Shown here: positions 2-39,830 of the stretch, piece after piece | How the letters are laid out: every line of letters starts with the position of its first letter | How positions within the stretch are numbered: the stretch's first letter is position 1 | NCBI GenBank assembly: GCA_964527545.1 | Contig: CAZGQF010000002.1 | Location: 23,452 to 87,451, forward strand | Direction of reading: 5' to 3' | DNA length: 64,000 nt | Source of the DNA: Candidatus Undinarchaeota archaeon | GTDB taxonomy: Archaea > SpSt-1190 > DYHY01 > CAZGQF01 | Notes under the pieces: generated by a model | Told to the model about the DNA's origin: nothing | What the model saw: the letters and a program-made list of their open reading frames with translations, nothing else | Databases searched by the model: none | Made by a program: the position numbers and the translations under genes

Positions 2-1378
2 ACCACCGCCCACTACGCCTGCGCTGTCCTCTCCTGGGACGAGCCGGCCGTACTGCGACACGTGGAGGAGAACCCCAGCGCTGTGCGCCTCTCCAACTGC
101 GGCTCGAGAGGTGATGACCTGGAGTTCCTCCCCATCTGGAGCTTCTCGGACTGCGCCTTGGACTCGGACAGGTACGACCACTACTACGACATCCGCCTCT
201 CTGTCGACTACGAAACAGAGCTTGGAGGTATGGCCATCGCTCCCCAAAGTGGCGGCGACCATTACGTCTACTTCGGAAACCTCACTTCTTCTAGCGCAGA
301 ACCTGCCCTTTTCGAGAGGGTGGAGGCGCCGAACTGGACCGCAGAGGAGGAGAGCGTGGAGGAGCAACTCCTGCTCAATGCTACCCCCGCCCTCAACGCC
401 AGCGCCGCGCCCTCATTCAACATCTCCGGCAACGGCTCTGCCAGCTACAGGGCGACTCTCTGCCAGGAGGCTGTCGAGAACGCCACGGTCTGGGCAGACG
501 GCGAACCGGTCTGGGAGAGAGAGCTGTTCACAGGAAACGCCTCACTCTTTCTCGGCCCAGTCCGAGAGCTATCGTTCACGCAGTCCGGCCGCGCTCCCGT
601 CAACCTCACTTCCCTCTCCTTCCGTTTCAAGGAGGTCGCCAGGGACGTCTCTTTCTCCAACCTCACCTTCCTCCCCCTCATCTCATCCCCTCTCAACTTC
701 ACACTCCCCTCCCCCAACGTCACCCACAACTCTTCCTTCCCCCTCCTCATCACCTCCTGGATCAACGCAAGCAGGAGCTGGGAGGCGGAGCCGTTTTCAA
801 GGAGAGAGGGCGGTTCTCTCTTCAACTCGCTCTTTCTCTTCTTCCCCCTGTCCGCGAGAGAGAAAACAGTCAGTTTCGAGATAGAAGAAAACTCGACGTC
901 GAGGGAGAGCGGGGCGCCTTTTCTCTGGAGAGACGGCAAAGTCACTCTTTTTCCCAATTCATCTGCTCTCTTCTTCAACTGGACCTTTTCTCTCCCCGCG
1001 GTCGAGGAGGAGCGGGACGAGAGGCCGAGGCCGATGGCCGCCGAAGAGAAAAGCGGGCGGTCAGGCTCTTTTTCGTTTGACCTGGCCGCGGAGGAGAGAG
1101 AGCTTGAGGAGAAGAGTCCGGATCCAGAGCGGAGGGATTTTGACCCTCCAAAGCCTGTGGGCTCTGAGTCCATCTCAAGGAGGCTGGAGGGGATGAGGCT
1201 GGAGGACGGAGAGCAGGACGTTCAGGCGGAGGAGAGCGACAAGGCCAGACAGGCGCCTGTCCGCGAGTCGGAGCGGCCGGAGAACGTCACTTCAGAGTCC
1301 GGGTCGCCCGGCAAGGCGGCTTTCCCCCTCCTCTTTCTCGTCGCCCTCACTTTCCTTCTGAAATCCTGGAGTGGATGA
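2..1378 (+). CDS. Surface glycoprotein, 5'-truncated at window edge (sequon-rich ectodomain, C-terminal membrane anchor)
   Basis: Frame is open from the first bases of the window to the stop at 1376-1378; dense N-x-S/T sequons (NLT, NWT, NAT, NAS, NIS, NGS, NFT, NVT); ends in hydrophobic segment AAFPLLFLVALTFLL. Confidence 0.55.
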   Translation, partial: TTAHYACAVLSWDEPAVLRHVEENPSAVRLSNCGSRGDDLEFLPIWSFSDCALDSDRYDHYYDIRLSVDYETELGGMAIAPQSGGDHYVYFGNLTSSSAEPALFERVEAPNWTAEEESVEEQLLLNATPALNASAAPSFNISGNGSASYRATLCQEAVENATVWADGEPVWERELFTGNASLFLGPVRELSFTQSGRAPVNLTSLSFRFKEVARDVSFSNLTFLPLISSPLNFTLPSPNVTHNSSFPLLITSWINASRSWEAEPFSRREGGSLFNSLFLFFPLSAREKTVSFEIEENSTSRESGAPFLWRDGKVTLFPNSSALFFNWTFSLPAVEEERDERPRPMAAEEKSGRSGSFSFDLAAEERELEEKSPDPERRDFDPPKPVGSESISRRLEGMRLEDGEQDVQAEESDKARQAPVRESERPENVTSESGSPGKAAFPLLFLVALTFLLKSWSG

Positions 1379-1791: not shown

Positions 1792-1880
1792 TGGGCCCGG
1801 AGGGATTCGAACCCCCGATCCACTGGTTTCTTCCGCAAAGACCGAAGCCAGTTGCCCTATCCAGACTAGGCCACGGGCCC
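1792..1880 (-). tRNA. tRNA-Arg (anticodon UCG) with ~14-nt intron after position 37
   Basis: Manual fold of reverse complement: acceptor GGGCCCG/CGGGCCC, D arm GCCT-AGTCTGGATA-GGGC, anticodon stem ACTGG/CCAGT enclosing 21 nt (7-nt loop CUUCGGA plus 14-nt insert), T arm GGGGG-TTCGAAT-CCCTC, discriminator A. Confidence 0.65.
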
Positions 1881-1930
1881 GTGGAGATTGTGGAGGCGGA
1901 TTAAATAAGCGTTTCATACACGAGAAACCC

Positions 1931-1950
1931 CATTTATTAACTATATAATG
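1931..1950 (+). promoter_or_regulatory. Archaeal TATA-box promoter candidate (TTATTAACTATATAA)
   Basis: AT-rich block with TATATAA at 1943-1949, about 45 nt upstream of the ATG at 1994. Confidence 0.4.
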
Positions 1951-1993
1951 GTAAAATAATTAAGCTAGTGTTGCTTATTGTTTGATAGGGGAG

Positions 1994-2293
1994 ATGATCG
2001 GCTTGGCCCTATACAAGCGCTCATACAAGAAAAAAAGCTATGGCGGGACTTCTTCGGGTAGAAAGGGGTTCGACGAGCTGTCATATGCAAAAGGGGAGCT
2101 TTCCAAGAAGGGTCTCACTTATGACAGTCTGGTTAAGGACATGAAGACCGCGAAGGACAATACGTGGGGGGGAAGGCCTCTCTCGGCTGCAGTGAACTAT
2201 GCGAAGCGGCAGTTTGGGGTTTCGGGGAAGGTGATGGACATACTGCAGCGTAAGGGAGACCTTCACAAGAAGTACTGGGGATATGGTAATTGA
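1994..2293 (+). CDS. Hypothetical small basic K/Y/G-rich protein
   Basis: ORF track 1982..2293; first ATG at 1994; low-complexity basic composition (YKRSYKKKSYGG...), no recognisable domain. Confidence 0.4.
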   Translation: MIGLALYKRSYKKKSYGGTSSGRKGFDELSYAKGELSKKGLTYDSLVKDMKTAKDNTWGGRPLSAAVNYAKRQFGVSGKVMDILQRKGDLHKKYWGYGN

Positions 2294-2369
2294 GGCCTTT
2301 TAGTTACTAATAGGTAGTAACATTTAAAAGAGCGCGTTGCGTAATTCAATTAGGGTAGGCGGAAAATCG

Positions 2370-3794
2370 ATGGGAAAAGTCAAGAGGCTCTTCAAAAAGA
2401 TAGGCAGGGGCTTCAAGAAGGCCGGGAAAGGAGTGAAGAAAGGCGTCACATATCTTCCTGGCAAGGCGAAGAAGGCCTACCAGAGCAGGAAGGAGACGTC
2501 TGCCGGACGCCCAAGCTGGAGAGAGAGGCGGAGCTGGAGGAAGGCGGAGAAGAAGTACAAGAAGAGCAAGGAAGGGCCAGGCCTTTTTGGGAAGATGAAG
2601 GAGAGGATCGGGTCATACAGGGAAGGTAAGAAAAGGAAGGAGGTGAAGGATTTTGAGAGGGCAAAGAAATCCCTTGATGACATCAGGGAGAGGCACAAGA
2701 AAGTCCAGGAGGCCTTGCGGGGTACAGGCAAGATAAGGAAGGCAAAGCCGGGCGAGACAAGTGGACCTTTTGGGTACCATGTCGAGAAAGGCTACCTCGG
2801 GAAGAAGCTCGGCAGGGAGAGGAAGAAGCTCGACAAGGAGTTCGCGAAACTCGGCGCGAAATTTGAGGAGAAGAGAAAGTGGCTGGATGCGAAGAAGAAG
2901 TACAATAGGAAGAAGATGCTCAAGCACGCCAAGAAAGAGGGCCTTCTCGACAAGGGGGGCGAGCTCGACGTTCTGAAATACATGGGGAAGACGAAGTGGC
3001 TTTCAGAGGCTGAGAAGCTGAAGACGCACAAGTACGCGAAGAAGATGGGCGAGGCTGTCAGGCAGAGAATGAAGGAGCAGGACAAGTGGACAGCCGAGAA
3101 GACTGATGCTTGGGGCAGATACAAGACTAAGAGGCGGGGTCTGACTAGAGAGTTCGCCGAGAAGTCAGCAAAGTCGAGGGGGGCCTACAAAGGGCTGCTT
3201 TCAGAGAAGGGAGGGGAGATGGGTAGCGCCTTGGACGACCTGAAGTCGTCTGGGTTCTGGGGGAAGATGAGGGCTAGGCGGCTGGCCCGCAAGAAGGCGA
3301 AAGGCCTCCACAAGAAGGGGAAGGAGGTTTTCGAGAATGACTATGAGTTGGGTCACTGGGAAGAAGACCAGGAGATGGTCAAGGGATACGTGAAAGACCT
3401 TGGCGGTTATCTCGGCCGCCACGGAAAGGTCTCACGCGCGTTCGGGACGGCTTCAGAAGGAGTCTCGAAGGGTTTCGGCGAGGTCAAGGAGGCTTACCAG
3501 ACCTGGCGTGCGGAGAAGGCGCTTGGCAAGTATGGGCAGGAGATCCTCGCCGACTACAAGGAGACACTCATGGAGAACCCCAAGAGTGCCCATCTGCAGG
3601 ACTCCATAGAGAGGGTCCTGCTCTCCAAGGGCAGGAAGGGAGAGAAGGTCCTGAAGAAGATGGAGAAGAGCAAGGCCTATAGCGACGTCCTTGCCTCCGG
3701 CCTCTACAAGGGCGCACAGGCTGTCAAGGAGACACTTCAGATAGGTGACAAATATGGCACTGCAAAGGCCGCATACGCGAAAGCAGCATCCTAA
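2370..3794 (+). CDS. Hypothetical lysine-rich highly charged protein (~475 aa)
   Basis: ORF track 2337..3794; ATG at 2370 preceded by TATA-like TTTAAAAG at about 2322-2330; K/R/E/G-rich repeats (KKxGKG, AKK, EKK) throughout; no catalytic motif seen. Confidence 0.5.
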   Translation: MGKVKRLFKKIGRGFKKAGKGVKKGVTYLPGKAKKAYQSRKETSAGRPSWRERRSWRKAEKKYKKSKEGPGLFGKMKERIGSYREGKKRKEVKDFERAKKSLDDIRERHKKVQEALRGTGKIRKAKPGETSGPFGYHVEKGYLGKKLGRERKKLDKEFAKLGAKFEEKRKWLDAKKKYNRKKMLKHAKKEGLLDKGGELDVLKYMGKTKWLSEAEKLKTHKYAKKMGEAVRQRMKEQDKWTAEKTDAWGRYKTKRRGLTREFAEKSAKSRGAYKGLLSEKGGEMGSALDDLKSSGFWGKMRARRLARKKAKGLHKKGKEVFENDYELGHWEEDQEMVKGYVKDLGGYLGRHGKVSRAFGTASEGVSKGFGEVKEAYQTWRAEKALGKYGQEILADYKETLMENPKSAHLQDSIERVLLSKGRKGEKVLKKMEKSKAYSDVLASGLYKGAQAVKETLQIGDKYGTAKAAYAKAAS

Positions 3795-3815
3795 CTCGGC
3801 ATCGAGGAGACAAGA

Positions 3816-4586
3816 ATGGGGAGGATATGGAACTTTCTGAAGGGGTTGATTGATCCTGCTAGGGGGCTGGCCAGCCCACACTTTCAGTTTTCGAAGGCTG
3901 TTCCCAGTAAGACCTACGGGCAGTCTGCTGGTGTATCTGGTGGGACGGAGACTGCTGCAGGTCCCCCTGAAGTCTCGTCTCCTGAGAGCAGGAAGGTGGC
4001 ACAGGGTCCTGAGATCGGCAAGGGCGGGACCGGTCTCGATGGTAAGATGAAGTCGGTCTACAGGGTGAGGGCTGCGAAGAAATCGCCCGAAGACGCCACA
4101 CCTGTTGACCGCGGGTTCGTCGCCTATACAGAGATAGGGAGGGGGCTTTCCAAGGAGGACAAAAAAGAGAGCGCAAGGTCGTTTTTCGGAGCCTTCACTC
4201 CCTACTTGAACAGGATATATGGTAGCAACAGAGCAGGAGCCCGCAATGTAGTGAACGAGGATGGGATTGTTGGACTTTTCAATGACGTCTATGGCAGGCT
4301 CTCGGCTGATGAGCAGGTGGAGATGCTCGAGTCCCTGAAGGGACCGCTTAAGAGCTACAAGGGGATTGCCATAGGGACGAAGAAAGGATATTCCGAGACA
4401 AAGAAGGCCTTCTCCGCAGTTGCTGAGAAAGGGAAAGGTTCCTTCAAGGACAGGGAAGCGCTCAAACAGGCCTCTGCAGACTCTCTGAAAACTGGTGGTG
4501 TGGTCGGCCTGCCTGAAGGGAGCTACAGGTCGCCTGGCTCGACTGCCAAGGACGGCAACTATTCAAAGGCGAAGGCAGAGGCGTGA
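3816..4586 (+). CDS. Hypothetical basic G/K/Y-rich protein
   Basis: ORF 256 aa, GGAGG-like RBS just upstream, 21 nt after the stop of the preceding gene (likely co-transcribed). Confidence 0.45.
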   Translation: MGRIWNFLKGLIDPARGLASPHFQFSKAVPSKTYGQSAGVSGGTETAAGPPEVSSPESRKVAQGPEIGKGGTGLDGKMKSVYRVRAAKKSPEDATPVDRGFVAYTEIGRGLSKEDKKESARSFFGAFTPYLNRIYGSNRAGARNVVNEDGIVGLFNDVYGRLSADEQVEMLESLKGPLKSYKGIAIGTKKGYSETKKAFSAVAEKGKGSFKDREALKQASADSLKTGGVVGLPEGSYRSPGSTAKDGNYSKAKAEA

Positions 4587-4597
4587 CTCGACTCATG

Positions 4598-5062
4598 TCA
4601 CTCTTTTTTGACCATGAAGAAGTGCATCTCCCTGAAGCCGAACTCCCTGTAGAACTCTTTCGCGTTATTGTTGGAGTGGTAGCCGATGACCTGGACTCTC
4701 TCCAACCCCCTCTCCTCGAACCAGCGGAGGACCTGCTTTATCAGCTCGCTGCCGACTCCCCTCCCACGATGGCCTTCTTTCACGTAGAAGAGGCCTATGT
4801 TCCCCTTCCTCTCGTGTATTGACCAGTCGCCCCCCTCCTCTTCCTCCTCCGCCATCGCCATGCCGACCGGCTCGCCTTCAATCTCTGCGATGAAGACGAC
4901 GCTCTCGTCGGAGGAGAGCTTGCGGATCAGCTTCGAGAGCTTGAGATGCCTCGCCTCCTCCTTGATTGCGTCGTCGAACTGGCGCTCGAAATCTGCGAGC
5001 CTCTGCTGGAAACGGTCGACCAGGCCGATGTCGTCGAGAGTCGCTTTCCTGATCGAGACCAT
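4598..5062 (-). CDS. GNAT family N-acetyltransferase
   Basis: ORF track 4598..5077, start likely the ATG at 5062; acetyl-CoA binding motif HRGRGVGSELIKQV and GNAT-like length. Confidence 0.65.
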   Translation of the reverse strand: MVSIRKATLDDIGLVDRFQQRLADFERQFDDAIKEEARHLKLSKLIRKLSSDESVVFIAEIEGEPVGMAMAEEEEEGGDWSIHERKGNIGLFYVKEGHRGRGVGSELIKQVLRWFEERGLERVQVIGYHSNNNAKEFYREFGFREMHFFMVKKE

Positions 5063-5112
5063 GTTTCCTGGCGTCAAATTATCTATTTAAGGAAGGGGCA
5101 TTGGGGCCGCCC

Positions 5113-5394
5113 ATGGCCAAGGAGGTCCACGCCAGCCACATACTGGTAAAGAGCAAAGAGGAAGCGAGAGAGATATTGGAAAAGCTGAAGGGCGGAGCAA
5201 AGTTCTCGGCCATCGCAAAAAAGAGGTCTGCATGCCCATCAGGGAAGAAGGGCGGCGACCTCGGCTGGTTCACGCGCGGCAGGATGGTGAAGCCCTTCGA
5301 GAAGGCAGCCTTCTCGATGGAGAAAGGCGAAGTCTCTGAGCCTGTCAAGACGCAGTTCGGCTGGCACGTAATCAAAGTATTGGAGAAGAGGTAG
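5113..5394 (+). CDS. Parvulin-type peptidyl-prolyl cis-trans isomerase (single domain)
   Basis: ASHILVK...GGDLGWF...FGWHVIKV is the parvulin/PpiC core; about 93 aa from the ATG at 5113. Confidence 0.7.
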   Translation: MAKEVHASHILVKSKEEAREILEKLKGGAKFSAIAKKRSACPSGKKGGDLGWFTRGRMVKPFEKAAFSMEKGEVSEPVKTQFGWHVIKVLEKR

Positions 5395-33873: not shown

Positions 33874-36800
33874 TCACTGGGAAGGCGGCGTCCACTGATT
33901 GCCTGTCGTCCCCGGCGAGCTTCCTGTCTCTTCTCCTTTAAACCCCCCGCTGGTGGTGGTGTCTCCTTCTCCCCCACCGGCTTGAGTCTCCTTTTCCAGC
34001 CTGTTCCCCACAGGTATGATCTCTTCCGCCATCAGTATCCCGTTCTCCACTCTCCCCTTCACCATGCAGGACATGTCTGAGAGACCCCCTTCTGAGTAGA
34101 CCTTTATGGAGCCTGAGTCATCTGTCAGGTTGCCGTTGTGCTCGTCGACCGCCTTCAGGTAGCCAGTCAGGTAGACGATTGGGTACTCGTCCGGGCTCTC
34201 GAGGACTTTGGCCACGTTGACACCTTCATCTTTCTTCGTCTTGTAGAGGTAGTAGCCGCCCCCTGCCAGGGCGAGGAGCAGGAGGACTACCGCCGCAATG
34301 ACGACGGGAGAGATGCCCCCTCCCGCCCCCTCCACGTCGACTTCCTCTTCCACCTCCTCGCAGCGGTGGGTGGAGGTGTTGCACTCCTCCCCTTCCGGAC
34401 AGCCGCAGTCCTCGCAGCAGACGTCCTCTTCGCAGAGGCCGTCCCCGCACCTTGGCACTCTCTTGGCGACTGCGGTTGTGGTGATCATGTTCAGGCTCCC
34501 CTGGTCCAGGTCCTCCAAGAACTGGTACCTGAATGTCTTGCCTATTGTGTCGAGCTGATAGGCGAAGACTGGGTCGTCTTCGAAAACTATGGGCTGGTCA
34601 AAGAACCTCAAGCTGTCGGCGTCCCCTGCCAGGTCCTTTGGCACAGTGACGACTAGGAGGGCGTTCTCTTTCGAGCTTCTCAGCTTTGCGCTTATGGTGA
34701 TGGTTGTGTAGTAGTTTGTCTGGCCTCCCACCTCCCACTTCACCACTTCGGCCTCCACCTCGAAGATCACCTCCTCGTTGATGGCCTCCATGTCGGTCTC
34801 GTTGGTGTAGTTCTTCGCCAGCTCCAAGGCGACGTCGCTCGTGGTCAGCATCCTTGGCTCGTAGCTGTCCACGACGCTTGCGGTCCCTATCGAGCTGTCC
34901 AGGCTCGAGATCAGCGTCTCAGCGTCGCTTAACTGTCCTGCCGCTATCATGCTCTCTATCTCCTCGATCACCTCCTGCTCGATCTCAAGCGGGATCCCGA
35001 GGTCCCTTATCTCCTCAATCTTGTCCTTGAGTTCCTGGAAGTCGGTCTCTGCCTGGCTGACCTCCTCTGTCTCGTTGCCCTCTTCCTCTTCCCCCTCCTC
35101 CTCTTCCTCATCGTCGTCGCCCCCTCCGCCTATGAACCCCCCGCCGCCGTTCAGGTCGGGCTCAACGTCGACGGCGACATCGACCTCCCTGTCGCAGGCC
35201 TTCAAGGTAACAGTCCCTTCGAACCCCTCGTCGTCGGTCGGGACGTAGATCTCTATGGTCCTCGACTGGCCGGGTGTGAGGGTTATCTCGTCCTCGAGGT
35301 CGGTATACATCTCTTCCTCGTCCTCGTCGATCTCTACCTCAAGGGTGGTGGCGACGTTGCCTATGTTCTGGACAGACCTCCTGCTGGTCCCGCCCACCGT
35401 TATGTCCTCGTTGTTGAAAGAGCAGTCCAAGATTGTGGGAATGTCAAAGGTCGCGGAAGAGTTGATTGTCTCGCCGCTGCGGGAGAGGGCCGTGTAGCTC
35501 GTCCCGCTGGTCAGGGAGGCGTAGACAGAGTAGGTGCCGGGCGGGTTGGTCCTGTTTATCTTTGTCCTGCTGATGTCGGCGTAGTCCCCGCTGGTCAGGT
35601 CGATGGCCCCGTCCCACGTGACAGGGTATTTTGTGTTGTTGATGACGAGTTCGCCGTCGTCGTCGAAGATCTCGAAGCGGTAGGTCGCAGTCGCAGTCGC
35701 ACCTGTGTTGTTGAAGAATCCCTTCTCTATCTCCACCCAGTCGCCTATCTCAGCCTCGTCCTGGTCCAGCTCTATGGGAACCACCGGCGTGTCGAGCAGT
35801 GTCACCGTGGTCGTGTCTGAGAATGGAGTGTCGAAGTAGAAGGTCCGGGTCATATTGTAGCGGAGTGTGTAGACTCCTGCAGGGTCCGAGATATCGAACT
35901 CGTAGTTGGATGAGAATGTGGTGTTTTCGTAGGGCATTAGGGTATCTGAGTCTGACCTGTCGGTCCTGAGCCCGACGATCTCTGTATCCAACCAGAACGA
36001 GAAACCGTAGTAGCTCTGCAGCACGACCGACAGGTTGAGCGGGTAGGCGACCTCCGCCTTGACAGGAGTGGCCCACTTCACGTCGCTCACGTTCAGCTTT
36101 TTCGTCTCGAACTCCAGGTTGTAGGTGAGCTCCGAATTTGCAGGCATCGTCGCGTTCTCAGTCCAGTTGAGCCAGCTCGGCCAGGAGAACTCGAAGGGGA
36201 CAGCGTCGCCGTTGTAGGTCAGGTCGTAAGGTGTGGTGTTGTAGGTCGGCGCCTCGAAGCTGACAGAGACGTTGTCTATCTCCTTGCTTGCCCTGTTCTC
36301 CAGTGTCAGCTCTTCAACCCAGCTCACGTGAGTCTCGTTTTCGCTTGAGAAAACAGTGTCGGTCTCCTCCGTGAGAGCCGGCGCGGGCAGGTCGTAGGTG
36401 ACGTTGAACTTCCGCGAAGAGCCGGCGCCGAGGAAGAAGACCTCCTTCGCGAAGTCCCCCGTTGTGCTCGACGAGTTGTCGCAGTCGTCGCAGACGGTCC
36501 AGTTGACCCCCCTTATGTTGGTCGCGTCGTGCGGGACAGGAAAGATGGCCTGTATCGTCCCGCCGATGATCAGGTCGTTGACCACTGTGACGTTCTGCGT
36601 CCACTTGATGGGCTCGCCCTCCACTATCTCAGCGTTTCTCCTGTCGGTTCCGTTAACGTTCCTGAGGGAGGTGGTGTTGTAGTCTATGAAATAGTCTCTC
36701 TTCTCGCCCGCAGAGAGCGTCCCCACGTCGAACCAGACAGTGTCGTTGGTGGAGTTCTCAATCTTGTCGTACGCAAGTGGCGTCCCGTCCAGCGTGACCT

Positions 36801-39366
36801 CCTCAACGCTCGAGTTGGCGTCGATCTCGACACTCACGAAGCCGAACTCTGCAGGAGACGCCTTTGAGTTGTTGAGGGAGAGCGTGTGGCGGACGTTGAT
36901 GGTGCTGGGCTGGGGGAAAGGCGGGTTGGAGTAGCCGCGGAACTCTATCTCTTCGCCTCTCGAGAAGTCGTCAGTGTCTATCTCGTAGGTCCCAGTCCAG
37001 ACAGGAGTGCTGTTCCAGTTGCCTGCCGCGTCCCTCACTATGAAGGTGGCGTTGACCTCCGTGGAGTTGGGGAGCGACGAGAAGAACTTGATGCAACGGC
37101 CGTCCTCCACGTTGAGAGTCTCAGGCGTCTGCGCCGCGCCGTCGAAGTAGGCCGTTATGTTGCAATGCGTCGCACCACTATTGTCGTCGCTGACGTTTGC
37201 GTAGAAGACTGGCCTGTCGTTGGCCACCGTTTCGTTGACGGACGGCGAGACGCCTGTCACGTTCGGGTCTGTCCCGTCCACGGCGAGGTCGAGTCCGACA
37301 GTCAGGTTGGAGTAGCTGAAGCTGTCGGTCGCGTTGAAAGAGAGAGTGTGGTCGCCGCTGCCTCCAGGTATCTGGCAGGCGAGCGAGTAGTTGCCGTCAC
37401 CCGCCGAGCTGTCGATCCCTGCGCCGTCGTCCTTGAGCTCCGTCCAGCTCCCGCCGAGGGGAGTCAAGTTGAGTGTGAAGTTGGTGACCAAGCCGATGTC
37501 CTCCACTCTCGCGAAGACCTCGATCCAGTCGCCAGGCTTCACGACTGTGTCGTTGACCATGACGTCCAGTACGTCCGGCGCCGACCTGTCGATGGTGAGG
37601 TTGACCCGCTGGCTTGAGTTGTAGTGGCCGAAGGTGTCGTTGGCGAAAAAGATGATTGTCTGGTTGCCTTCCTCTGCCTCAGGCACGGTGTAGCGGGCAG
37701 AGTGGTTGCCGTCGCCCCCTGCGGCGTCTGGCTGGGAGCCGTCATCAAGAAGGCGGGCAGTGTTGAAGTCAACAATGTGCACGTAGGAGTAGGTTCCCGA
37801 TGCGTCGTAGTAGGTTATCAGCTCGTCAGTGCCGTCACCGTCACTGTCGATGGTCCCTTCCACGTAAAAACTGCTGATTATCTTGTCTGCAGTTAGGTTG
37901 AAGACGACGCTCCTGTTTACGAACGGATCGAAAAACCTTGAGTTGCCATAGTTGTTGCTGTCCGTGTAGACCAGCGTCTCCCTGTTTCCGCCGTAAAAGG
38001 AGCCCTTGCTCTGCGTTGAGGTTGTCAGCTCTCCGAACACGATCGGCGTATCAGCAATCTGTGTCTGGTTGTCGTAGAACTTCGAGTCGAAAATAATCTC
38101 CTTGCTTCCGTCCCCGTCGCTCTCGATGGCGACCAGGGACAACGAACTGGAGACCAACTCTGACGTGTTGTAGTACTCTTGTGTCTGGTTGTCGAAGATG
38201 TGGAGGTAGCTCGTAGTCGCATTCGAGTAGGCGATCTCCCCTGCACCGTCTCCGTCGATGTCGCCGCACACGAACTGCGAGGACTTTATGCTCGTATTCT
38301 CCAAGCGCCCTGTGGCGTTTTCGTAGATCATGACCCATTGTCCTGTTTTGTTCCTGAACAGTATCTCATCCGCACCGTCGCCGTTCACGTCGCAGAGATG
38401 GAGATACCCTGAGGCGTAATCCGTCACTGAATATGTCGTATTGGTCGAGTTGTCGAGGACGGCAACGTAGTAGCTGCTCATGTCTTCCGTGACGTTCAAA
38501 TAGACCACCTCGTTCTCGCCGTCGCCGTTCACGTCCCCGACTTGAGGCACAAATCCGAGCCTGCCGGTAGAGTCTGTCCTGCCGTTCGCAAAGTCCCTTA
38601 TCTCGATGGGAAAGCCAGTGGACCAGCTGCCCTCGGAGACGTTGTTGTAGACAAGTTCGTCCGCACCGTCGCCGTTCACGTCGCCCGATCCAAGCATGGG
38701 TGACCCTGTGTAGGTGAGCACGCTCGTGTTTGTCGATGCATGGTCGAAAGGCATCAACGCCTTGACGCCTTTTACATCACCGTCCGAGTTGTTGGCCATT
38801 GCATAGAGCTCGATGATTGAACCGTTTGTGACCAGCGTCTGGTTGACAGTGGCGTTGACAGTCGGCCAGGTTAGGTTGACATAGGTGTAGTTCTCTGCGT
38901 AGCAGGGCGCGTCTGTCGCGTTGTCCCGGGCGGTCGCGTTCCAGGTCACGTTGCCGTCTTTCCAGGCAGACATGAGGAGGGTTATGTTCAGGTAGTCGCC
39001 GGCGGTCGCATTCGGATAGTTTTCCTTGGGCGTGCAGTTGACTTTCTCCCTGTAGCCGTCGCTGTCCGAGTCCCAGACGCCGCACTCCCAGGCAGTCCCG
39101 TTCGCCTTCCCGGTCTCGTTCGACCACCATGTCGCCTCGGCGTAGGTGACATTGTAGTGCTCTCTCGGCGAGGTGATGTTCGAAAGTTCTGTCATGTTCC
39201 AGGACTCCGGCCCCTCGTTCCAGAGGGTGAAGTTGTAGTAGCGGGGGAGGGCAGACCCCACGTAGGCCGTCTCGTTGACAGTGAGATTTGCCGCGGCCGA
39301 GGCCAAGCCTAGCAGAAAGAGCAGGACCAGACCTTGCTTCAACACACGGAAGCAACTACAGACCAT
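33874..39366 (-). CDS. Giant integrin-like surface glycoprotein (FG-GAP-like repeats, Cys-rich stalk, TM, cytoplasmic tail)
   Basis: Signal peptide from ATG 39366 (track ORF extends to 39678); several D-x-N/D-G-D-G-x-x-E repeats; many N-x-S/T sequons; acidic linker; Cys-rich RCGDGLCEEDVCCEDCGC; TM VVIAAVVLLLLALAGG; about 110-aa tail. Confidence 0.7.
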   Translation of the reverse strand: MVCSCFRVLKQGLVLLFLLGLASAAANLTVNETAYVGSALPRYYNFTLWNEGPESWNMTELSNITSPREHYNVTYAEATWWSNETGKANGTAWECGVWDSDSDGYREKVNCTPKENYPNATAGDYLNITLLMSAWKDGNVTWNATARDNATDAPCYAENYTYVNLTWPTVNATVNQTLVTNGSIIELYAMANNSDGDVKGVKALMPFDHASTNTSVLTYTGSPMLGSGDVNGDGADELVYNNVSEGSWSTGFPIEIRDFANGRTDSTGRLGFVPQVGDVNGDGENEVVYLNVTEDMSSYYVAVLDNSTNTTYSVTDYASGYLHLCDVNGDGADEILFRNKTGQWVMIYENATGRLENTSIKSSQFVCGDIDGDGAGEIAYSNATTSYLHIFDNQTQEYYNTSELVSSSLSLVAIESDGDGSKEIIFDSKFYDNQTQIADTPIVFGELTTSTQSKGSFYGGNRETLVYTDSNNYGNSRFFDPFVNRSVVFNLTADKIISSFYVEGTIDSDGDGTDELITYYDASGTYSYVHIVDFNTARLLDDGSQPDAAGGDGNHSARYTVPEAEEGNQTIIFFANDTFGHYNSSQRVNLTIDRSAPDVLDVMVNDTVVKPGDWIEVFARVEDIGLVTNFTLNLTPLGGSWTELKDDGAGIDSSAGDGNYSLACQIPGGSGDHTLSFNATDSFSYSNLTVGLDLAVDGTDPNVTGVSPSVNETVANDRPVFYANVSDDNSGATHCNITAYFDGAAQTPETLNVEDGRCIKFFSSLPNSTEVNATFIVRDAAGNWNSTPVWTGTYEIDTDDFSRGEEIEFRGYSNPPFPQPSTINVRHTLSLNNSKASPAEFGFVSVEIDANSSVEEVTLDGTPLAYDKIENSTNDTVWFDVGTLSAGEKRDYFIDYNTTSLRNVNGTDRRNAEIVEGEPIKWTQNVTVVNDLIIGGTIQAIFPVPHDATNIRGVNWTVCDDCDNSSSTTGDFAKEVFFLGAGSSRKFNVTYDLPAPALTEETDTVFSSENETHVSWVEELTLENRASKEIDNVSVSFEAPTYNTTPYDLTYNGDAVPFEFSWPSWLNWTENATMPANSELTYNLEFETKKLNVSDVKWATPVKAEVAYPLNLSVVLQSYYGFSFWLDTEIVGLRTDRSDSDTLMPYENTTFSSNYEFDISDPAGVYTLRYNMTRTFYFDTPFSDTTTVTLLDTPVVPIELDQDEAEIGDWVEIEKGFFNNTGATATATYRFEIFDDDGELVINNTKYPVTWDGAIDLTSGDYADISRTKINRTNPPGTYSVYASLTSGTSYTALSRSGETINSSATFDIPTILDCSFNNEDITVGGTSRRSVQNIGNVATTLEVEIDEDEEEMYTDLEDEITLTPGQSRTIEIYVPTDDEGFEGTVTLKACDREVDVAVDVEPDLNGGGGFIGGGGDDDEEEEEGEEEEGNETEEVSQAETDFQELKDKIEEIRDLGIPLEIEQEVIEEIESMIAAGQLSDAETLISSLDSSIGTASVVDSYEPRMLTTSDVALELAKNYTNETDMEAINEEVIFEVEAEVVKWEVGGQTNYYTTITISAKLRSSKENALLVVTVPKDLAGDADSLRFFDQPIVFEDDPVFAYQLDTIGKTFRYQFLEDLDQGSLNMITTTAVAKRVPRCGDGLCEEDVCCEDCGCPEGEECNTSTHRCEEVEEEVDVEGAGGGISPVVIAAVVLLLLALAGGGYYLYKTKKDEGVNVAKVLESPDEYPIVYLTGYLKAVDEHNGNLTDDSGSIKVYSEGGLSDMSCMVKGRVENGILMAEEIIPVGNRLEKETQAGGGEGDTTTSGGFKGEETGSSPGTTGNQWTPPSQ

Positions 39367-39403
39367 TATTAAAGCTTTAAAGGGGCAGAGGGAGTTCGGG
39401 CGG

Positions 39404-39646
39404 GTGAGAGTCGAGGTCAAAGTCAGAACCAGCGCCCAAAAGGAGAGGATTGAGCTTGAGGACGGCCGCCTCGTCGTCTCCCTCAAGGAGCCAGCCAGGA
39501 AGGGAAAGGCCAATCTTGCCCTCGTGAAGCTCCTCGCCGGCAGGGCGGGCTGCTCTTCTGCAGAGGTGGCCTTTGTCAGCGGCCTCTCCTCGCGGAGGAA
39601 AGTACTTGAGTTTCCAGACTGCGAGATAGAGAAGCTGCTCGGATGA
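39404..39646 (+). CDS. YggU-like (DUF167/UPF0235) small protein
   Basis: VEVKVRTSAQKERIE...GKANLALVKLLA...VSGLSSRRKVLEF matches DUF167 pattern; in-frame GTG at 39404 proposed (track ORF from 39275 overlaps the signal-peptide end of the giant gene). Confidence 0.45.
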   Translation: MRVEVKVRTSAQKERIELEDGRLVVSLKEPARKGKANLALVKLLAGRAGCSSAEVAFVSGLSSRRKVLEFPDCEIEKLLG

Positions 39647-39830
39647 CTTTTGGCACGTTCGTGGCAAACCTCCCGCAATACTTATAAATGGCCTTTCTCT
39701 CCTCTCTGCAGAACTCACATCATCAGTTCGCATTCACTGTACATGGGAAGCGCCGGTTAACATTGATGTCTAGGCGCGGTTGCAGGGCAGCTCGGCTGAT
39801 TTTGCAGAGTTCTGAAGAAGGTGAAGAAGA

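What the first reader, a model, noticed from the sequence alone, without database searches (positions are those of the whole stretch)
1994..4586. Cluster of three K/G/Y-rich low-complexity basic proteins beside tRNA-Arg
Three consecutive plus-strand genes (100, 475 and 256 aa) encode extremely basic, low-complexity proteins with repetitive KKxGKG / YKK / EKK motifs, and each has a TATA-like element or RBS. They sit immediately on the 5' side of an intron-containing tRNA-Arg, separated by an AT-rich spacer, in an otherwise GC-rich housekeeping neighbourhood. The composition suggests nucleic-acid or chromatin binding, condensate-forming, or hydrophilin-like stress proteins; no known family is recognisable by eye.
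Basis: partly seen in the sequence, partly recalled or inferred. Interest (0 to 1): 0.6.

Follow-up and report, generated by a model that had tools for sequence, protein, structure and literature searches.

The report
Orphan operon of lysine-rich basic proteins
Three neighbouring genes in a rarely sampled archaeon encode basic, lysine/glycine-rich proteins with no detectable relative in billions of public sequences; they look like real lineage-specific orphan genes, most plausibly nucleic-acid binders, but nothing here shows what they do.

Summary
An intron-bearing tRNA-Arg(UCG) at 1792-1880 is transcribed divergently from them. A and B are strongly basic and Lys-rich (pI 10.0 and 10.2; B net +71). 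C is only moderately basic.

"Low-complexity with repetitive motifs" is overstated. A SEG-like filter masks 15-16% of A and B and none of C, and each named motif occurs once or twice.

B is certainly a gene. Its ORF is longer than in all 500 shuffles and its codon usage matches the host. A and C probably code but lie in a grey zone.

No match was found in Pfam, NCBIfam, PHROGs, PADLOC, PDB, phage, plasmid, viral or metagenome collections. B was also searched exhaustively against 1.84 billion representative proteins.

B is predicted almost entirely helical with heptad periodicity. It has an exceptionally amphipathic cationic N-terminal helix, a polycationic first 320 residues (+68) and a near-neutral C-terminal 150.

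There is no integrase, no att repeat and no viral homologue.

Best guess (about 0.35): cytoplasmic proteins that bind polyanions, meaning nucleic acids. Interest is modest, because orphan basic proteins are common and no functional handle emerged.

The parts
1792..1880 (-). tRNA-Arg (anticodon UCG) with a 14-nt intron after position 37. It is a divergent neighbour of the cluster; its 3' end abuts the start of the bPH gene.
   Evidence: Rfam tRNA 55.3 bits. ARAGORN finds it but cannot type it. Anticodon and intron read from the sequence. Cloverleaf fold with intron helix.
1881..1993 (.). AT-rich divergent promoter spacer (GC 0.354). It holds CTTATTTAAT (1909-1900, minus strand) 20-29 nt upstream of the tRNA, and AT boxes at 1932-1940, 1942-1949 and 1952-1963 upstream of A.
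   Evidence: Read from the sequence; GC. Promoter function is inferred, not tested.
1994..2293 (+). ORF A: 99 aa, pI 10.0, K 16%, G 14%, Y 8%. It has an N-terminal K/Y/S/G-rich tail followed by probable helices. Coding status is probable, not certain.
   Evidence: Codon LLR +0.27 in frame against -0.36 or lower in the other five frames, which is the grey zone. ORF length is not above chance. Called as a gene in NCBI and Logan assemblies.
2295..2333 (+). Intergenic stem-loop (core GTTACTA-ATAGG-TAGTAAC at 2303-2321, extended by CTTTTA/TAAAAG), with a T4 run at 2298-2301. It is a possible terminator of A. It overlaps the TATA-like TTTAAAA (2323-2329) that lies 41-47 nt upstream of B.
   Evidence: Fold -11.5 kcal/mol, z -2.67, 2 of 200 shuffles fold as well. 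Sequence.
2370..3794 (+). ORF B: 474 aa, pI 10.2, K 20.5%, net charge +71.
- Residues 3-26: cationic amphipathic helix.
- Residues 1-320: polycationic (+68), heptad-periodic and helical, with three W-x3-A-x-K..Y-x-K-K motifs (at 56, 171, 210).
- Residues 120-140: possible beta hairpin.
- Residues 321-474: near-neutral helical region.
   Evidence: ORF of 488 open codons against a shuffle maximum of 325. Codon LLR 0.56 and host-like synonymous usage. AF2 model almost all helical, pLDDT 57. muH 0.91 for residues 3-20 against a shuffle 95th percentile of 0.73. Lag-7 autocorrelation z 3.5 and charge profile. Only self-hits in sequence searches.
3804..3809 (+). GAGGAG Shine-Dalgarno-like element 7-12 nt upstream of C's ATG, inside the 21-nt B-C gap. 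This implies that B and C are co-transcribed.
   Evidence: Read from the sequence. Inference.
3816..4586 (+). ORF C: 256 aa, pI 9.7, G 13.7%, K 10.5%. The N-terminal ~110 residues are Gly/Ser/Pro/Ala-rich and predicted to be coil. A few helices follow (113-135, 164-173, 189-225).
   Evidence: AF2 pLDDT 42.7. Codon LLR 0.25, grey zone, with atypical synonymous usage. Only a self-hit.
4604..4609 (+). T6 run 18 nt after C's stop codon, a possible archaeal oligo-T terminator. It lies inside the last codons of the convergent GNAT gene (4598-5062/5077, minus strand).
   Evidence: Read from the sequence. Inference.

Best explanation
A, B and C are taxonomically restricted (orphan) protein-coding genes native to the chromosome of a sparsely sampled archaeon. 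A appears to be its own transcription unit and B-C form a bicistronic unit. They have no signal peptide or membrane-spanning segment, so their products should be cytoplasmic.

The proteins are polycationic and most likely act by non-specific electrostatic binding to polyanions, above all DNA or RNA.
- B would use its first ~320 residues as the binding surface. These carry net +68, form amphipathic heptad-periodic helices studded with Trp and Tyr, and begin with a very amphipathic cationic helix. Its near-neutral C-terminal ~150 residues would serve for self-association or partner binding.
- A (99 aa, pI 10) has the size and charge of a small nucleoid-associated protein.
- C would be a partly disordered accessory protein translated with B.

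Shown here: the ORFs, their composition, B's coding status, and the absence of any detectable homologue.
Inferred: transcription units, helicity, cytoplasmic location, and the binding function itself.
For: - Coding. B's ORF exceeds all 500 shuffles. Its codon LLR of 0.56 equals that of host genes (0.57 +/- 0.12), and its synonymous usage matches the host: AAG 0.82, GGC 0.41, AGG 0.61, TAC 0.71. For A and C only the annotated frame scores positive.
- Orphan status. Self-hits only among 5.8 billion clusters for B and C. An exhaustive phmmer of B against 1.84 billion representatives gave self plus one 29-residue convergent match. A is a singleton cluster. Nothing was found in Pfam, NCBIfam, PHROGs, PADLOC, PDB, phages, plasmids, IMG/VR or JGI metagenomes.
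- Polyanion binding. Net charge is +71 for B and +13 for each of A and C, against a proteome with median pI 5.65.
- Helical, amphipathic character. Mean hydrophobic moment is about 4 sd above shuffles for B. Residues 3-20 have muH 0.91 and net +9. Heptad periodicity is present. The AF2 model of B is almost entirely helical.
- Comparison with known NAPs. Known archaeal NAPs are 56-97 aa with pI 9.6-10.7 and are usually monocistronic (PMC7613761). A fits these numbers.
- Not a mobile element. No integrase, att repeat or viral/plasmid match.
Against: - No DNA- or RNA-binding domain or motif was detected, and no NAP family model matches.
- B is five times longer than typical archaeal NAPs and exceeds the 290-aa ceiling used for NAP candidates.
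- There is no expression, conservation or selection evidence. The only other copy (Logan contig L001) is 100% identical.
- The one detectable related organism (contig L003) breaks off before the syntenic slot.
- High positive charge also fits binding to anionic membranes or a hydrophilin-type role.
- Species-specific orphans are on average more basic and more disordered than conserved genes anyway (PMC11293555), so the composition is weak evidence of function.
- The AF2 models are low-confidence (pLDDT 57 and 43).
- A's and C's codon scores fall in the lowest ~5% of real-gene windows and the top ~2% of spurious ORFs.
Confidence: 0.35

Rival explanations
1. Membrane-surface proteins. B's N-terminal cationic amphipathic helix acts as an in-plane anchor on the anionic archaeal membrane. 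The long heptad-periodic helices then form a sub-membrane scaffold or remodelling coat, working like BAR, ESCRT-III, PspA or SepF-type proteins without being a member of those families.
For: Residues 3-20 (KVKRLFKKIGRGFKKAGK) have muH 0.91, far above the shuffle 95th percentile of 0.73, with net +9. This segment resembles the repeat units of a secreted ciliate protein and a designed amphipathic coiled coil, which is generic amphipathic-helix grammar. The weak fold matches are BAR domains, CdvB2 and CdvA among many helical hairpins.
Confidence: 0.15
2. Hydrophilin/LEA-like stress protectants or condensate formers. These would be highly hydrophilic Gly/Lys-rich proteins that shield macromolecules during desiccation, osmotic or thermal stress.
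For: B meets the operational hydrophilin thresholds of Gly >6% and hydrophilicity index >1 (Gly 11.8%, GRAVY -1.16; definition in PMC7448490). On the charge-hydropathy plot A and B fall on the disordered side. C is modelled mostly as coil.
Against: A (GRAVY -0.82) and C (-0.59) miss the threshold. No LEA, KGG, CsbD or other stress-protein Pfam model matches. There is no 11-residue periodicity; the signal is at lag 7. B has 7.8% Leu, 9 Trp and 21 Tyr and is predicted helical without desiccation, which is unlike typical LEA proteins.
Confidence: 0.12
3. Cargo left by a decayed virus, plasmid or other mobile element that landed next to the tRNA gene. Candidates would be a nucleoprotein, an internal virion protein or a DNA-coating protein, now domesticated or simply drifting.
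For: The cluster sits beside a tRNA gene. Its GC is lower than the window (0.51-0.555 against 0.587). A and C have atypical synonymous codon usage (GGC 0.14 and 0.17 against 0.53; TAT 0.62 and 0.50 against 0.15). In the related contig L003 a 17/20-nt copy of the tRNA 3' end sits upstream of bPH without a recognisable tRNA, which hints that this locus may be an integration hot spot.
Against: - No integrase, transposase or other mobility gene within 10 kb (gene table of L001).
- No direct repeat of the tRNA anywhere in the window.
- The cluster lies on the 5' side of the tRNA, whereas tRNA-targeting integrases insert at the 3' part (established knowledge).
- No hit in PHROGs, INPHARED, PLSDB, IMG/VR or BFVD.
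- B's codon usage is fully host-like, and its lower GC follows from 20% Lys codons (GC3 0.75).
Confidence: 0.13
4. Partly not genes. A and/or C are spurious or very young ORFs with no selected function, thrown up by a purine-rich, T-poor strand. Only B is a real protein.
For: In dinucleotide shuffles of this region, open runs average 160 codons (95th percentile 223), so A (111) is unremarkable and C is borderline. Codon scores of 0.27 and 0.25 lie below the 5th percentile of real-gene windows (0.29), and 3 of 133 spurious ORFs score as high. There are no homologues. C is modelled as mostly coil. Orphans with low codon adaptation, high pI and disorder are typical of young genes (PMC11293555).
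Against: For both ORFs the annotated frame is the only one of six with a positive codon score. C has a well-placed GAGGAG RBS. A has AT-rich boxes upstream and a stem-loop plus T-run downstream. Without A and C, 300 and 770 nt of non-coding DNA would sit in an otherwise compact region. Two independent gene calls report them.
Confidence: 0.15

Closest known systems
Archaeal nucleoid-associated proteins (Alba, histones, MC1, Cren7, Sul7d, HTa, CC1, and the lysine-rich candidate NAPs of Methanomassiliicoccales described in PMC7613761)
   Same: They are small or mid-sized, very basic (pI about 9.6-10.7), Lys-rich and often lineage-specific. A (99 aa, pI 10.0, apparently monocistronic) fits these numbers. 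The presumed mode of action, charge-driven nucleic-acid binding, is the same.
   Different: No sequence match to any NAP family model. B is 474 aa, against 56-97 aa for classical NAPs and a 290-aa ceiling for candidates. B and C form an operon. Abundance and nucleoid enrichment are unknown.
Hydrophilins / LEA-type proteins
   Same: High Gly content and strong hydrophilicity. B passes both numerical thresholds. The proteins are rich in Lys, Glu and Ala and have amphipathic-helix potential.
   Different: There are no LEA or KGG motifs and no 11-mer periodicity. Leu, Trp and Tyr are abundant, and helicity is predicted in solution. A and C fail the hydrophilicity threshold. No link to stress is known.
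Bacterial histone-H1-like polycationic proteins (Chlamydia Hc1/Hc2, Pseudomonas AlgP, mycobacterial Hlp C-terminal tails) - recalled from general knowledge, not tested beyond Pfam
   Same: They are large net positive charge carried by Lys, lineage-restricted, and presumed to compact DNA electrostatically.
   Different: Those proteins are built of short Ala/Pro/Lys repeats and are true low-complexity sequences. B is non-repetitive, poor in Pro and heptad-periodic. No Pfam hit.
Species-specific orphan genes of prokaryotes (PMC11293555)
   Same: They have no homologues, a higher pI, more disorder and lower codon adaptation. A and C fit this profile. There is no viral similarity.
   Different: B is long (orphans average about one third the length of conserved genes) and fully codon-adapted. 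That argues for an established, expressed gene rather than a recent arrival.

Membership tests
Known archaeal NAP families (Alba, archaeal histone, MC1, Cren7, Sul7d/7kD, HU/HTa, CC1) | Significant match to the family's Pfam profile | tested here: not met
   No Pfam family at E up to 0.1, nor at E up to 10 apart from one unrelated 8.9-bit Prefoldin_2 hit in B. No PDB sequence match.
Candidate archaeal NAP (operational criteria of PMC7613761) | Length below 290 aa | tested here: not met
   B is 474 aa, so it fails. A (99 aa) and C (256 aa) pass.
Candidate archaeal NAP (operational criteria of PMC7613761) | Known or predicted DNA-binding domain | tested here: not met
   No DNA-binding domain in Pfam or NCBIfam. 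No dedicated DNA-binding predictor was available.
Candidate archaeal NAP (operational criteria of PMC7613761) | High cellular abundance and nucleoid enrichment | not testable with these tools
   No expression or proteomic data for this organism.
Candidate archaeal NAP (operational criteria of PMC7613761) | Single-gene transcription unit | tested here: inconclusive
   A has its own AT-rich boxes upstream and a stem-loop plus T4 run downstream. B and C are 21 nt apart with an RBS, so they are probably an operon. All of this was read from sequence only.
Hydrophilins | Gly >6% and hydrophilicity index >1 (PMC7448490) | tested here: inconclusive
   B: Gly 11.8%, GRAVY -1.16, so it meets both. A: Gly 14.1%, GRAVY -0.82. 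C: Gly 13.7%, GRAVY -0.59. A and C fail on hydrophilicity.
Hydrophilins | Accumulation under water deficit | not testable with these tools
   No expression data.
LEA group 3 / KGG-repeat stress proteins | Family profile match or the 11-residue (LEA) / KGG repeat periodicity | tested here: not met
   No Pfam match. Similarity autocorrelation peaks at lag 7, not 11. The hydrophobicity spectrum peaks at 3.05 and 3.5.
tRNA-integrated mobile element (provirus or integrative plasmid) | Integrase gene and direct repeat of part of the tRNA (att sites) bounding the element | tested here: not met
   No integrase among the neighbours. No second copy of either end of the tRNA in 64 kb at up to 3 mismatches. 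No flanking repeats.
tRNA-integrated mobile element (provirus or integrative plasmid) | Homologues in viruses or plasmids | tested here: not met
   PHROGs, IMG/VR, INPHARED and PLSDB tblastn and BFVD Foldseek all gave nothing significant.
Prefoldin beta (helix - beta hairpin - helix) | Pfam Prefoldin_2 at or above the gathering score, or a significant fold match | tested here: not met
   8.9 bits against a cut-off of 27.6 (E 1.9). Foldseek 1fxk_A has E 4.6 and probability 0.51. phmmer of B 61-201 against PDB is empty. The topology resemblance of residues 71-189 rests on a model with pLDDT 70-81 only.
ESCRT-III / PspA / BAR-type membrane-remodelling helical proteins | Family profile or specific fold match | tested here: not met
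Anti-phage defence systems (PADLOC) | Match to a defence-protein model | tested here: not met
   No hit at E up to 0.1.

The most novel reading that the evidence does not exclude
B, helped by A and C, is the founding member of a new class of large polycationic coiled-coil proteins. In a deep, barely sampled archaeal lineage these would organise the nucleoid, or RNA/ribosome-rich condensates, adding a chromatin-like architectural protein unrelated to histones, Alba, MC1 or HU and about five times their size.
Probability: 0.12. Interest if true: 0.6.

Novelty: new variant of a known kind. Interest (0 to 1): 0.28.

Why it matters
If B and A really coat DNA or RNA, they would add another independent invention to the already patchy, lineage-specific repertoire of archaeal chromatin proteins. 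B would be an unusually large one, with a coiled-coil-like architecture.

More soberly, the cluster is a clean example of established orphan genes. B is 474 aa and fully codon-adapted, yet has no relative among about 15 billion predicted proteins. Such genes are useful test cases in the debate over whether prokaryotic orphans are imported or native.

Without expression data or relatives, it remains one of many uncharacterised orphan loci in metagenome-assembled archaeal genomes.

Tried and rejected
**Homology**
- Pfam (E up to 10), NCBIfam, PHROGs and PADLOC gave nothing.
- The word-indexed search of 5.8 billion clusters returned only self for B and C.
- Exhaustive phmmer of B against 1.84 billion representatives gave self plus P0003.
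- P0003 is a secreted six-repeat protein on a 1.3-kb contig of GCA_000751175.1 that does not translate with table 11. It matches only B's first 29 residues. I judge this to be convergence of amphipathic helices.
- PDB sequence searches gave nothing.
- tblastn against phages and plasmids gave nothing.
- Pattern scans of IMG/VR, JGI metagenomes and GTDB genomes gave nothing.
- A, B and C are not paralogues of one another, and there are no paralogues elsewhere in the window.

**Synteny**
- The DHO neighbour found no close relative among GTDB representatives.
- The tRNA 30-mer is absent from JGI metagenomes.
- The bPH neighbour has one homologue at 59% identity, but its contig (L003) ends 101 nt upstream of the gene.
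- The NCBI record of the source genome could not be retrieved.
- The two SRA run numbers appear in no paper.

**Structure**
- AF2 single-sequence models were low-confidence.
- afdb50 was not available.

**Rejected ideas**
- A KGG-repeat resemblance in A, seen by eye: no Pfam support.
- A prefoldin-like domain in B: two weak, concordant hints, both far below threshold.
- tRNA-targeted integration: no att repeat, no integrase, wrong side of the tRNA.
- The 369-codon antisense open frame as a gene: negative codon score, and a by-product of the purine-rich sense strand.
Full report
**What is in the sequence**

The window is archaeal chromosome. It carries tRNAs with a canonical-position intron and a DnaG-type Toprim protein. 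It also has an ATP-dependent DNA ligase, DUF2070, pyruvate:ferredoxin oxidoreductase, CarAB and dihydroorotase. TATA-like boxes sit about 22-32 nt upstream of many start codons.

The three ORFs are at the reported coordinates on the + strand:
- A, 1994-2293, 99 aa. An alternative TTG start lies at 1982.
- B, 2370-3794, 474 aa.
- C, 3816-4586, 256 aa.

The same three products were called by the gene finders behind the NCBI and Logan entries of the protein collection.

The tRNA at 1792-1880 is on the minus strand. Read by hand it has anticodon UCG (Arg) and a 14-nt intron after position 37, and it folds as a cloverleaf with an intron helix. ARAGORN detects it but cannot type it. Its 5' end faces A across a 113-nt spacer of GC 0.354. 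The tRNA and the cluster are therefore divergently transcribed. The tRNA's 3' end abuts the start codon of a bPH_2-domain gene.

**Is the composition unusual?**

Yes for A and B, less so for C.

| | K % | pI | Net charge | SEG-like masked |
|---|---|---|---|---|
| A | 16.2 | 10.0 | +13 | 15% |
| B | 20.5 | 10.2 | +71 | 16% |
| C | 10.5 | 9.7 | +13 | 0% |
| 29 other window proteins | 5.9 +/- 3.4 | median 5.65 | | |

The low-complexity label is overstated. KKxGKG occurs once, YKK twice across the three proteins, and EKK once. No pair of the three proteins is detectably related once composition is corrected for.

**Are they genes?**

B certainly is.
- Its 488-codon open run exceeds the maximum (325) of 500 dinucleotide shuffles of the region.
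- Its in-frame codon log-likelihood is 0.56, indistinguishable from 24 long host genes (0.57 +/- 0.12). The other five frames are negative.
- Its synonymous choices copy the host's.

A and C are probable genes. Only the annotated frame scores positive, but their scores (0.27 and 0.25) lie below the 5th percentile of real-gene windows. Three of 133 spurious ORFs score as high. Their Gly and Tyr codon choices are atypical. A's length is below the shuffle mean.

Signals read by eye fit a monocistronic A and a B-C operon.
- AT-rich boxes lie upstream of A.
- A stem-loop (-11.5 kcal/mol, z -2.7) plus a T4 run follows A, and it overlaps a TTTAAAA box 41-47 nt upstream of B.
- GAGGAG lies 7-12 nt upstream of C, in a 21-nt gap.
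- A T6 run follows C.

The 369-codon open frame on the opposite strand is a by-product of the purine-rich sense strand and has a negative codon score.

**Relatives**

None were found.
- Pfam (even at E up to 10), NCBIfam, PHROGs and PADLOC give nothing.
- B and C hit only themselves among 5.8 billion clusters.
- B hits only itself in an exhaustive phmmer scan of 1.84 billion representatives, apart from a 29-residue match to P0003.
- P0003 is a secreted protein with six tandem units. It sits on a 1.3-kb contig of GCA_000751175.1 that does not translate with the bacterial code. That makes it a eukaryote; from memory, a ciliate nanochromosome.
- The best PDB match to the same B segment is a de novo designed coiled coil. 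I read the P0003 match as convergence on amphipathic-helix grammar.
- A is a singleton cluster. Pattern scans of JGI metagenomes and IMG/VR, tblastn against phages and plasmids, and PDB found nothing.

The lineage itself is barely sampled.
- The Logan contig L001 is 100% identical to the window.
- The adjacent bPH protein has a single homologue, at 59% identity.
- That homologue's contig (L003) keeps the bPH / surface-protein / SelR synteny but ends 101 nt upstream of bPH.
- DHO and the tRNA found no close relatives in the GTDB representative genomes or in JGI metagenomes.

Conservation and selection therefore could not be assessed.

**Anatomy of the proteins**

The AF2 single-sequence model of B is almost entirely helical. 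Eleven helices run up to 80 residues, and a short hairpin lies at 120-140. Confidence is low: mean pLDDT 57, rising to 70-81 for residues ~90-180.

Independent sequence statistics agree with amphipathic helices.
- Hydrophobicity power at period 3.5 exceeds the shuffle 95th percentile.
- Similarity autocorrelation peaks at lag 7 with z 3.5, above the family-wise 95% level of 3.1.
- The mean hydrophobic moment is about 4 sd above shuffles.

Residues 3-20 (KVKRLFKKIGRGFKKAGK) have muH 0.91 and net +9. This is a textbook cationic amphipathic helix.

Charge is strongly polarised, with residues 1-320 carrying +68 and residues 321-474 carrying +3. A loose W-x3-A-x-K...Y-x-K-K motif recurs at residues 56, 171 and 210. 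B contains 9 Trp and 21 Tyr, which is unusual for a disordered protein.

C is modelled mostly as coil (pLDDT 43), with a Gly/Ser/Pro-rich first ~110 residues and a few helices.

None of the three has a signal peptide or a hydrophobic segment, judged by reading the sequences.

Fold searches with the B model returned only generic long-helix matches:
- Foldseek against PDB: E 2.6 or worse.
- Foldseek against BFVD: E 0.23 or worse.

A faint, concordant hint of a prefoldin-beta-like helix-hairpin-helix at residues 71-189 is far below any threshold. It consists of Pfam Prefoldin_2 at E 1.9 and Foldseek 1fxk_A at probability 0.51, and a targeted PDB search did not support it.

**Mobile element?**

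This is not supported.
- No integrase or other mobility gene lies nearby.
- No copy of either tRNA end exists elsewhere in the 64 kb, and there are no flanking repeats.
- The cluster is on the tRNA's 5' side.
- There is no viral or plasmid similarity.
- B's lower GC follows from its Lys codons (GC3 0.75).
- Only the atypical codon usage of A and C points the other way.

**Most likely mechanism**

The best-supported reading is that these are native, lineage-restricted genes for cytoplasmic polycationic proteins acting through charge-driven binding of polyanions.

I favour nucleic acids (confidence about 0.35) for these reasons:
- The positive charge is spread over 320 residues, not confined to an anchor.
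- Aromatic residues are abundant.
- A has the size, pI and apparently monocistronic layout of archaeal nucleoid-associated proteins (56-97 aa, pI 9.6-10.7; PMC7613761).
- B's neutral C-terminal third could mediate oligomerisation.

Rivals are membrane-surface binding through the N-terminal amphipathic helix (0.15) and a hydrophilin-like protectant role (0.12). B passes the Gly >6% and hydrophilicity >1 thresholds of PMC7448490, but A and C do not, and there is no 11-mer periodicity. Further rivals are decayed mobile-element cargo (0.13), and the possibility that A and/or C are not functional genes (0.15).

High pI, disorder and poor codon adaptation are general traits of species-specific orphans (PMC11293555). 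The composition of A and C is therefore weak evidence for any function. B stands out from that pattern by its length and full codon adaptation.

**Comparison with the known, and verdict**

The cluster is not a member of any family tested, including the NAP families, LEA/KGG, prefoldin, ESCRT-III/BAR, defence systems and integrated elements. It may work like a lineage-specific nucleoid- or RNA-associated protein set. If so, B would be a new, much larger variant of that kind.

Orphan basic proteins are common in poorly sampled archaea and no functional handle emerged, so I score interest at 0.28. The most novel reading not excluded is a new class of large coiled-coil chromatin-like protein. I give it a probability of about 0.12.

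Noticed in passing
L003:48-70 (relative's contig), compared with window 1792-1811: In the only related contig, a 17/20-nt copy of the tRNA-Arg 3' end (GCGGATCCCTCCAGGCCCAT) sits 35 nt upstream of the bPH start. No recognisable tRNA lies in front of it, and ARAGORN finds none. The contig starts only ~50 nt further upstream. It could be an att-like tRNA fragment left by an integrated element, or a diverged or truncated tRNA.
   Followed up: partly
window 5060-5115: The divergent GNAT and parvulin (PpiC) genes probably start at inner ATGs (5062 on the minus strand, 5113 on the plus strand). They share one AT-rich box (about 5076-5093, CAAATTATCTATTTAAGG) roughly 14-31 nt upstream of each start. 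This looks like a single bidirectional TATA region for two leaderless genes. The ORF-finder starts (TTG 5077 and 5101) are probably wrong; the 5101 product is not in the protein collection.
   Followed up: partly
window-wide: 8454, 14472, 46544, 58924, 1880, 63833: Many confident genes and two tRNAs have a TATA-like box about 22-32 nt upstream of the start, which suggests mostly leaderless mRNAs. A and B instead have their AT boxes 31-62 and 41-47 nt upstream, implying short leaders.
   Followed up: partly
window 2295-2333: An extended palindrome (CTTTTAGTTACTA-ATAGG-TAGTAAC-ATT-TAAAAG) lies between A and B. It folds better than 198 of 200 shuffles and overlaps B's TATA-like box. It could be A's terminator, or an operator for a dimeric regulator of B-C.
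   Followed up: partly
window 2370-2447 (B residues 1-26) and protein P0003 / locus L004: B's N-terminal helix is 52-62% identical to the repeat unit (SIFNKIGDGFKKAGKGIEKGA) of a secreted six-repeat protein. That protein is encoded on a 1.3-kb contig of GCA_000751175.1 that needs a non-standard genetic code, which is reminiscent of an antimicrobial-peptide precursor. I judge this to be convergence.
   Followed up: yes
window 2580-2936 (B residues 71-189): This is the best-modelled part of B (pLDDT 70-81) and has a helix - beta hairpin - helix topology. Pfam Prefoldin_2 (E 1.9, near full-length) and Foldseek prefoldin beta (probability 0.51, TM 0.60 on the target) point the same way, but both are far below significance.
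   Followed up: partly
window 1981-4586, minus strand: A 369-codon stop-free frame runs antisense to the cluster. Its codon score is negative. It is explained by the pyrimidine-rich antisense of a purine-rich coding strand and is a trap for ORF-based annotation.
   Followed up: yes
window 62-1378 (+), full length 754 aa in L001:573-2837; orthologue L003:514-2685: An acidic (pI 4.5) protein is densely studded with N-x-S/T sequons and ends in a C-terminal hydrophobic anchor. It has no Pfam match, is conserved in position next to bPH and SelR in the relative, and is probably a lineage-specific surface glycoprotein.
   Followed up: no
window 33874-39678 (-): A 1934-aa acidic protein (pI 4.1) has only a weak FG-GAP repeat hit. 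It is probably a giant surface or adhesion protein.
   Followed up: no
window 1792-1880: ARAGORN reports this tRNA as 'tRNA-???' with a two-base anticodon because of the 14-nt intron, whereas Rfam scores it at 55 bits. This may matter for automated annotation of the lineage.
   Followed up: yes
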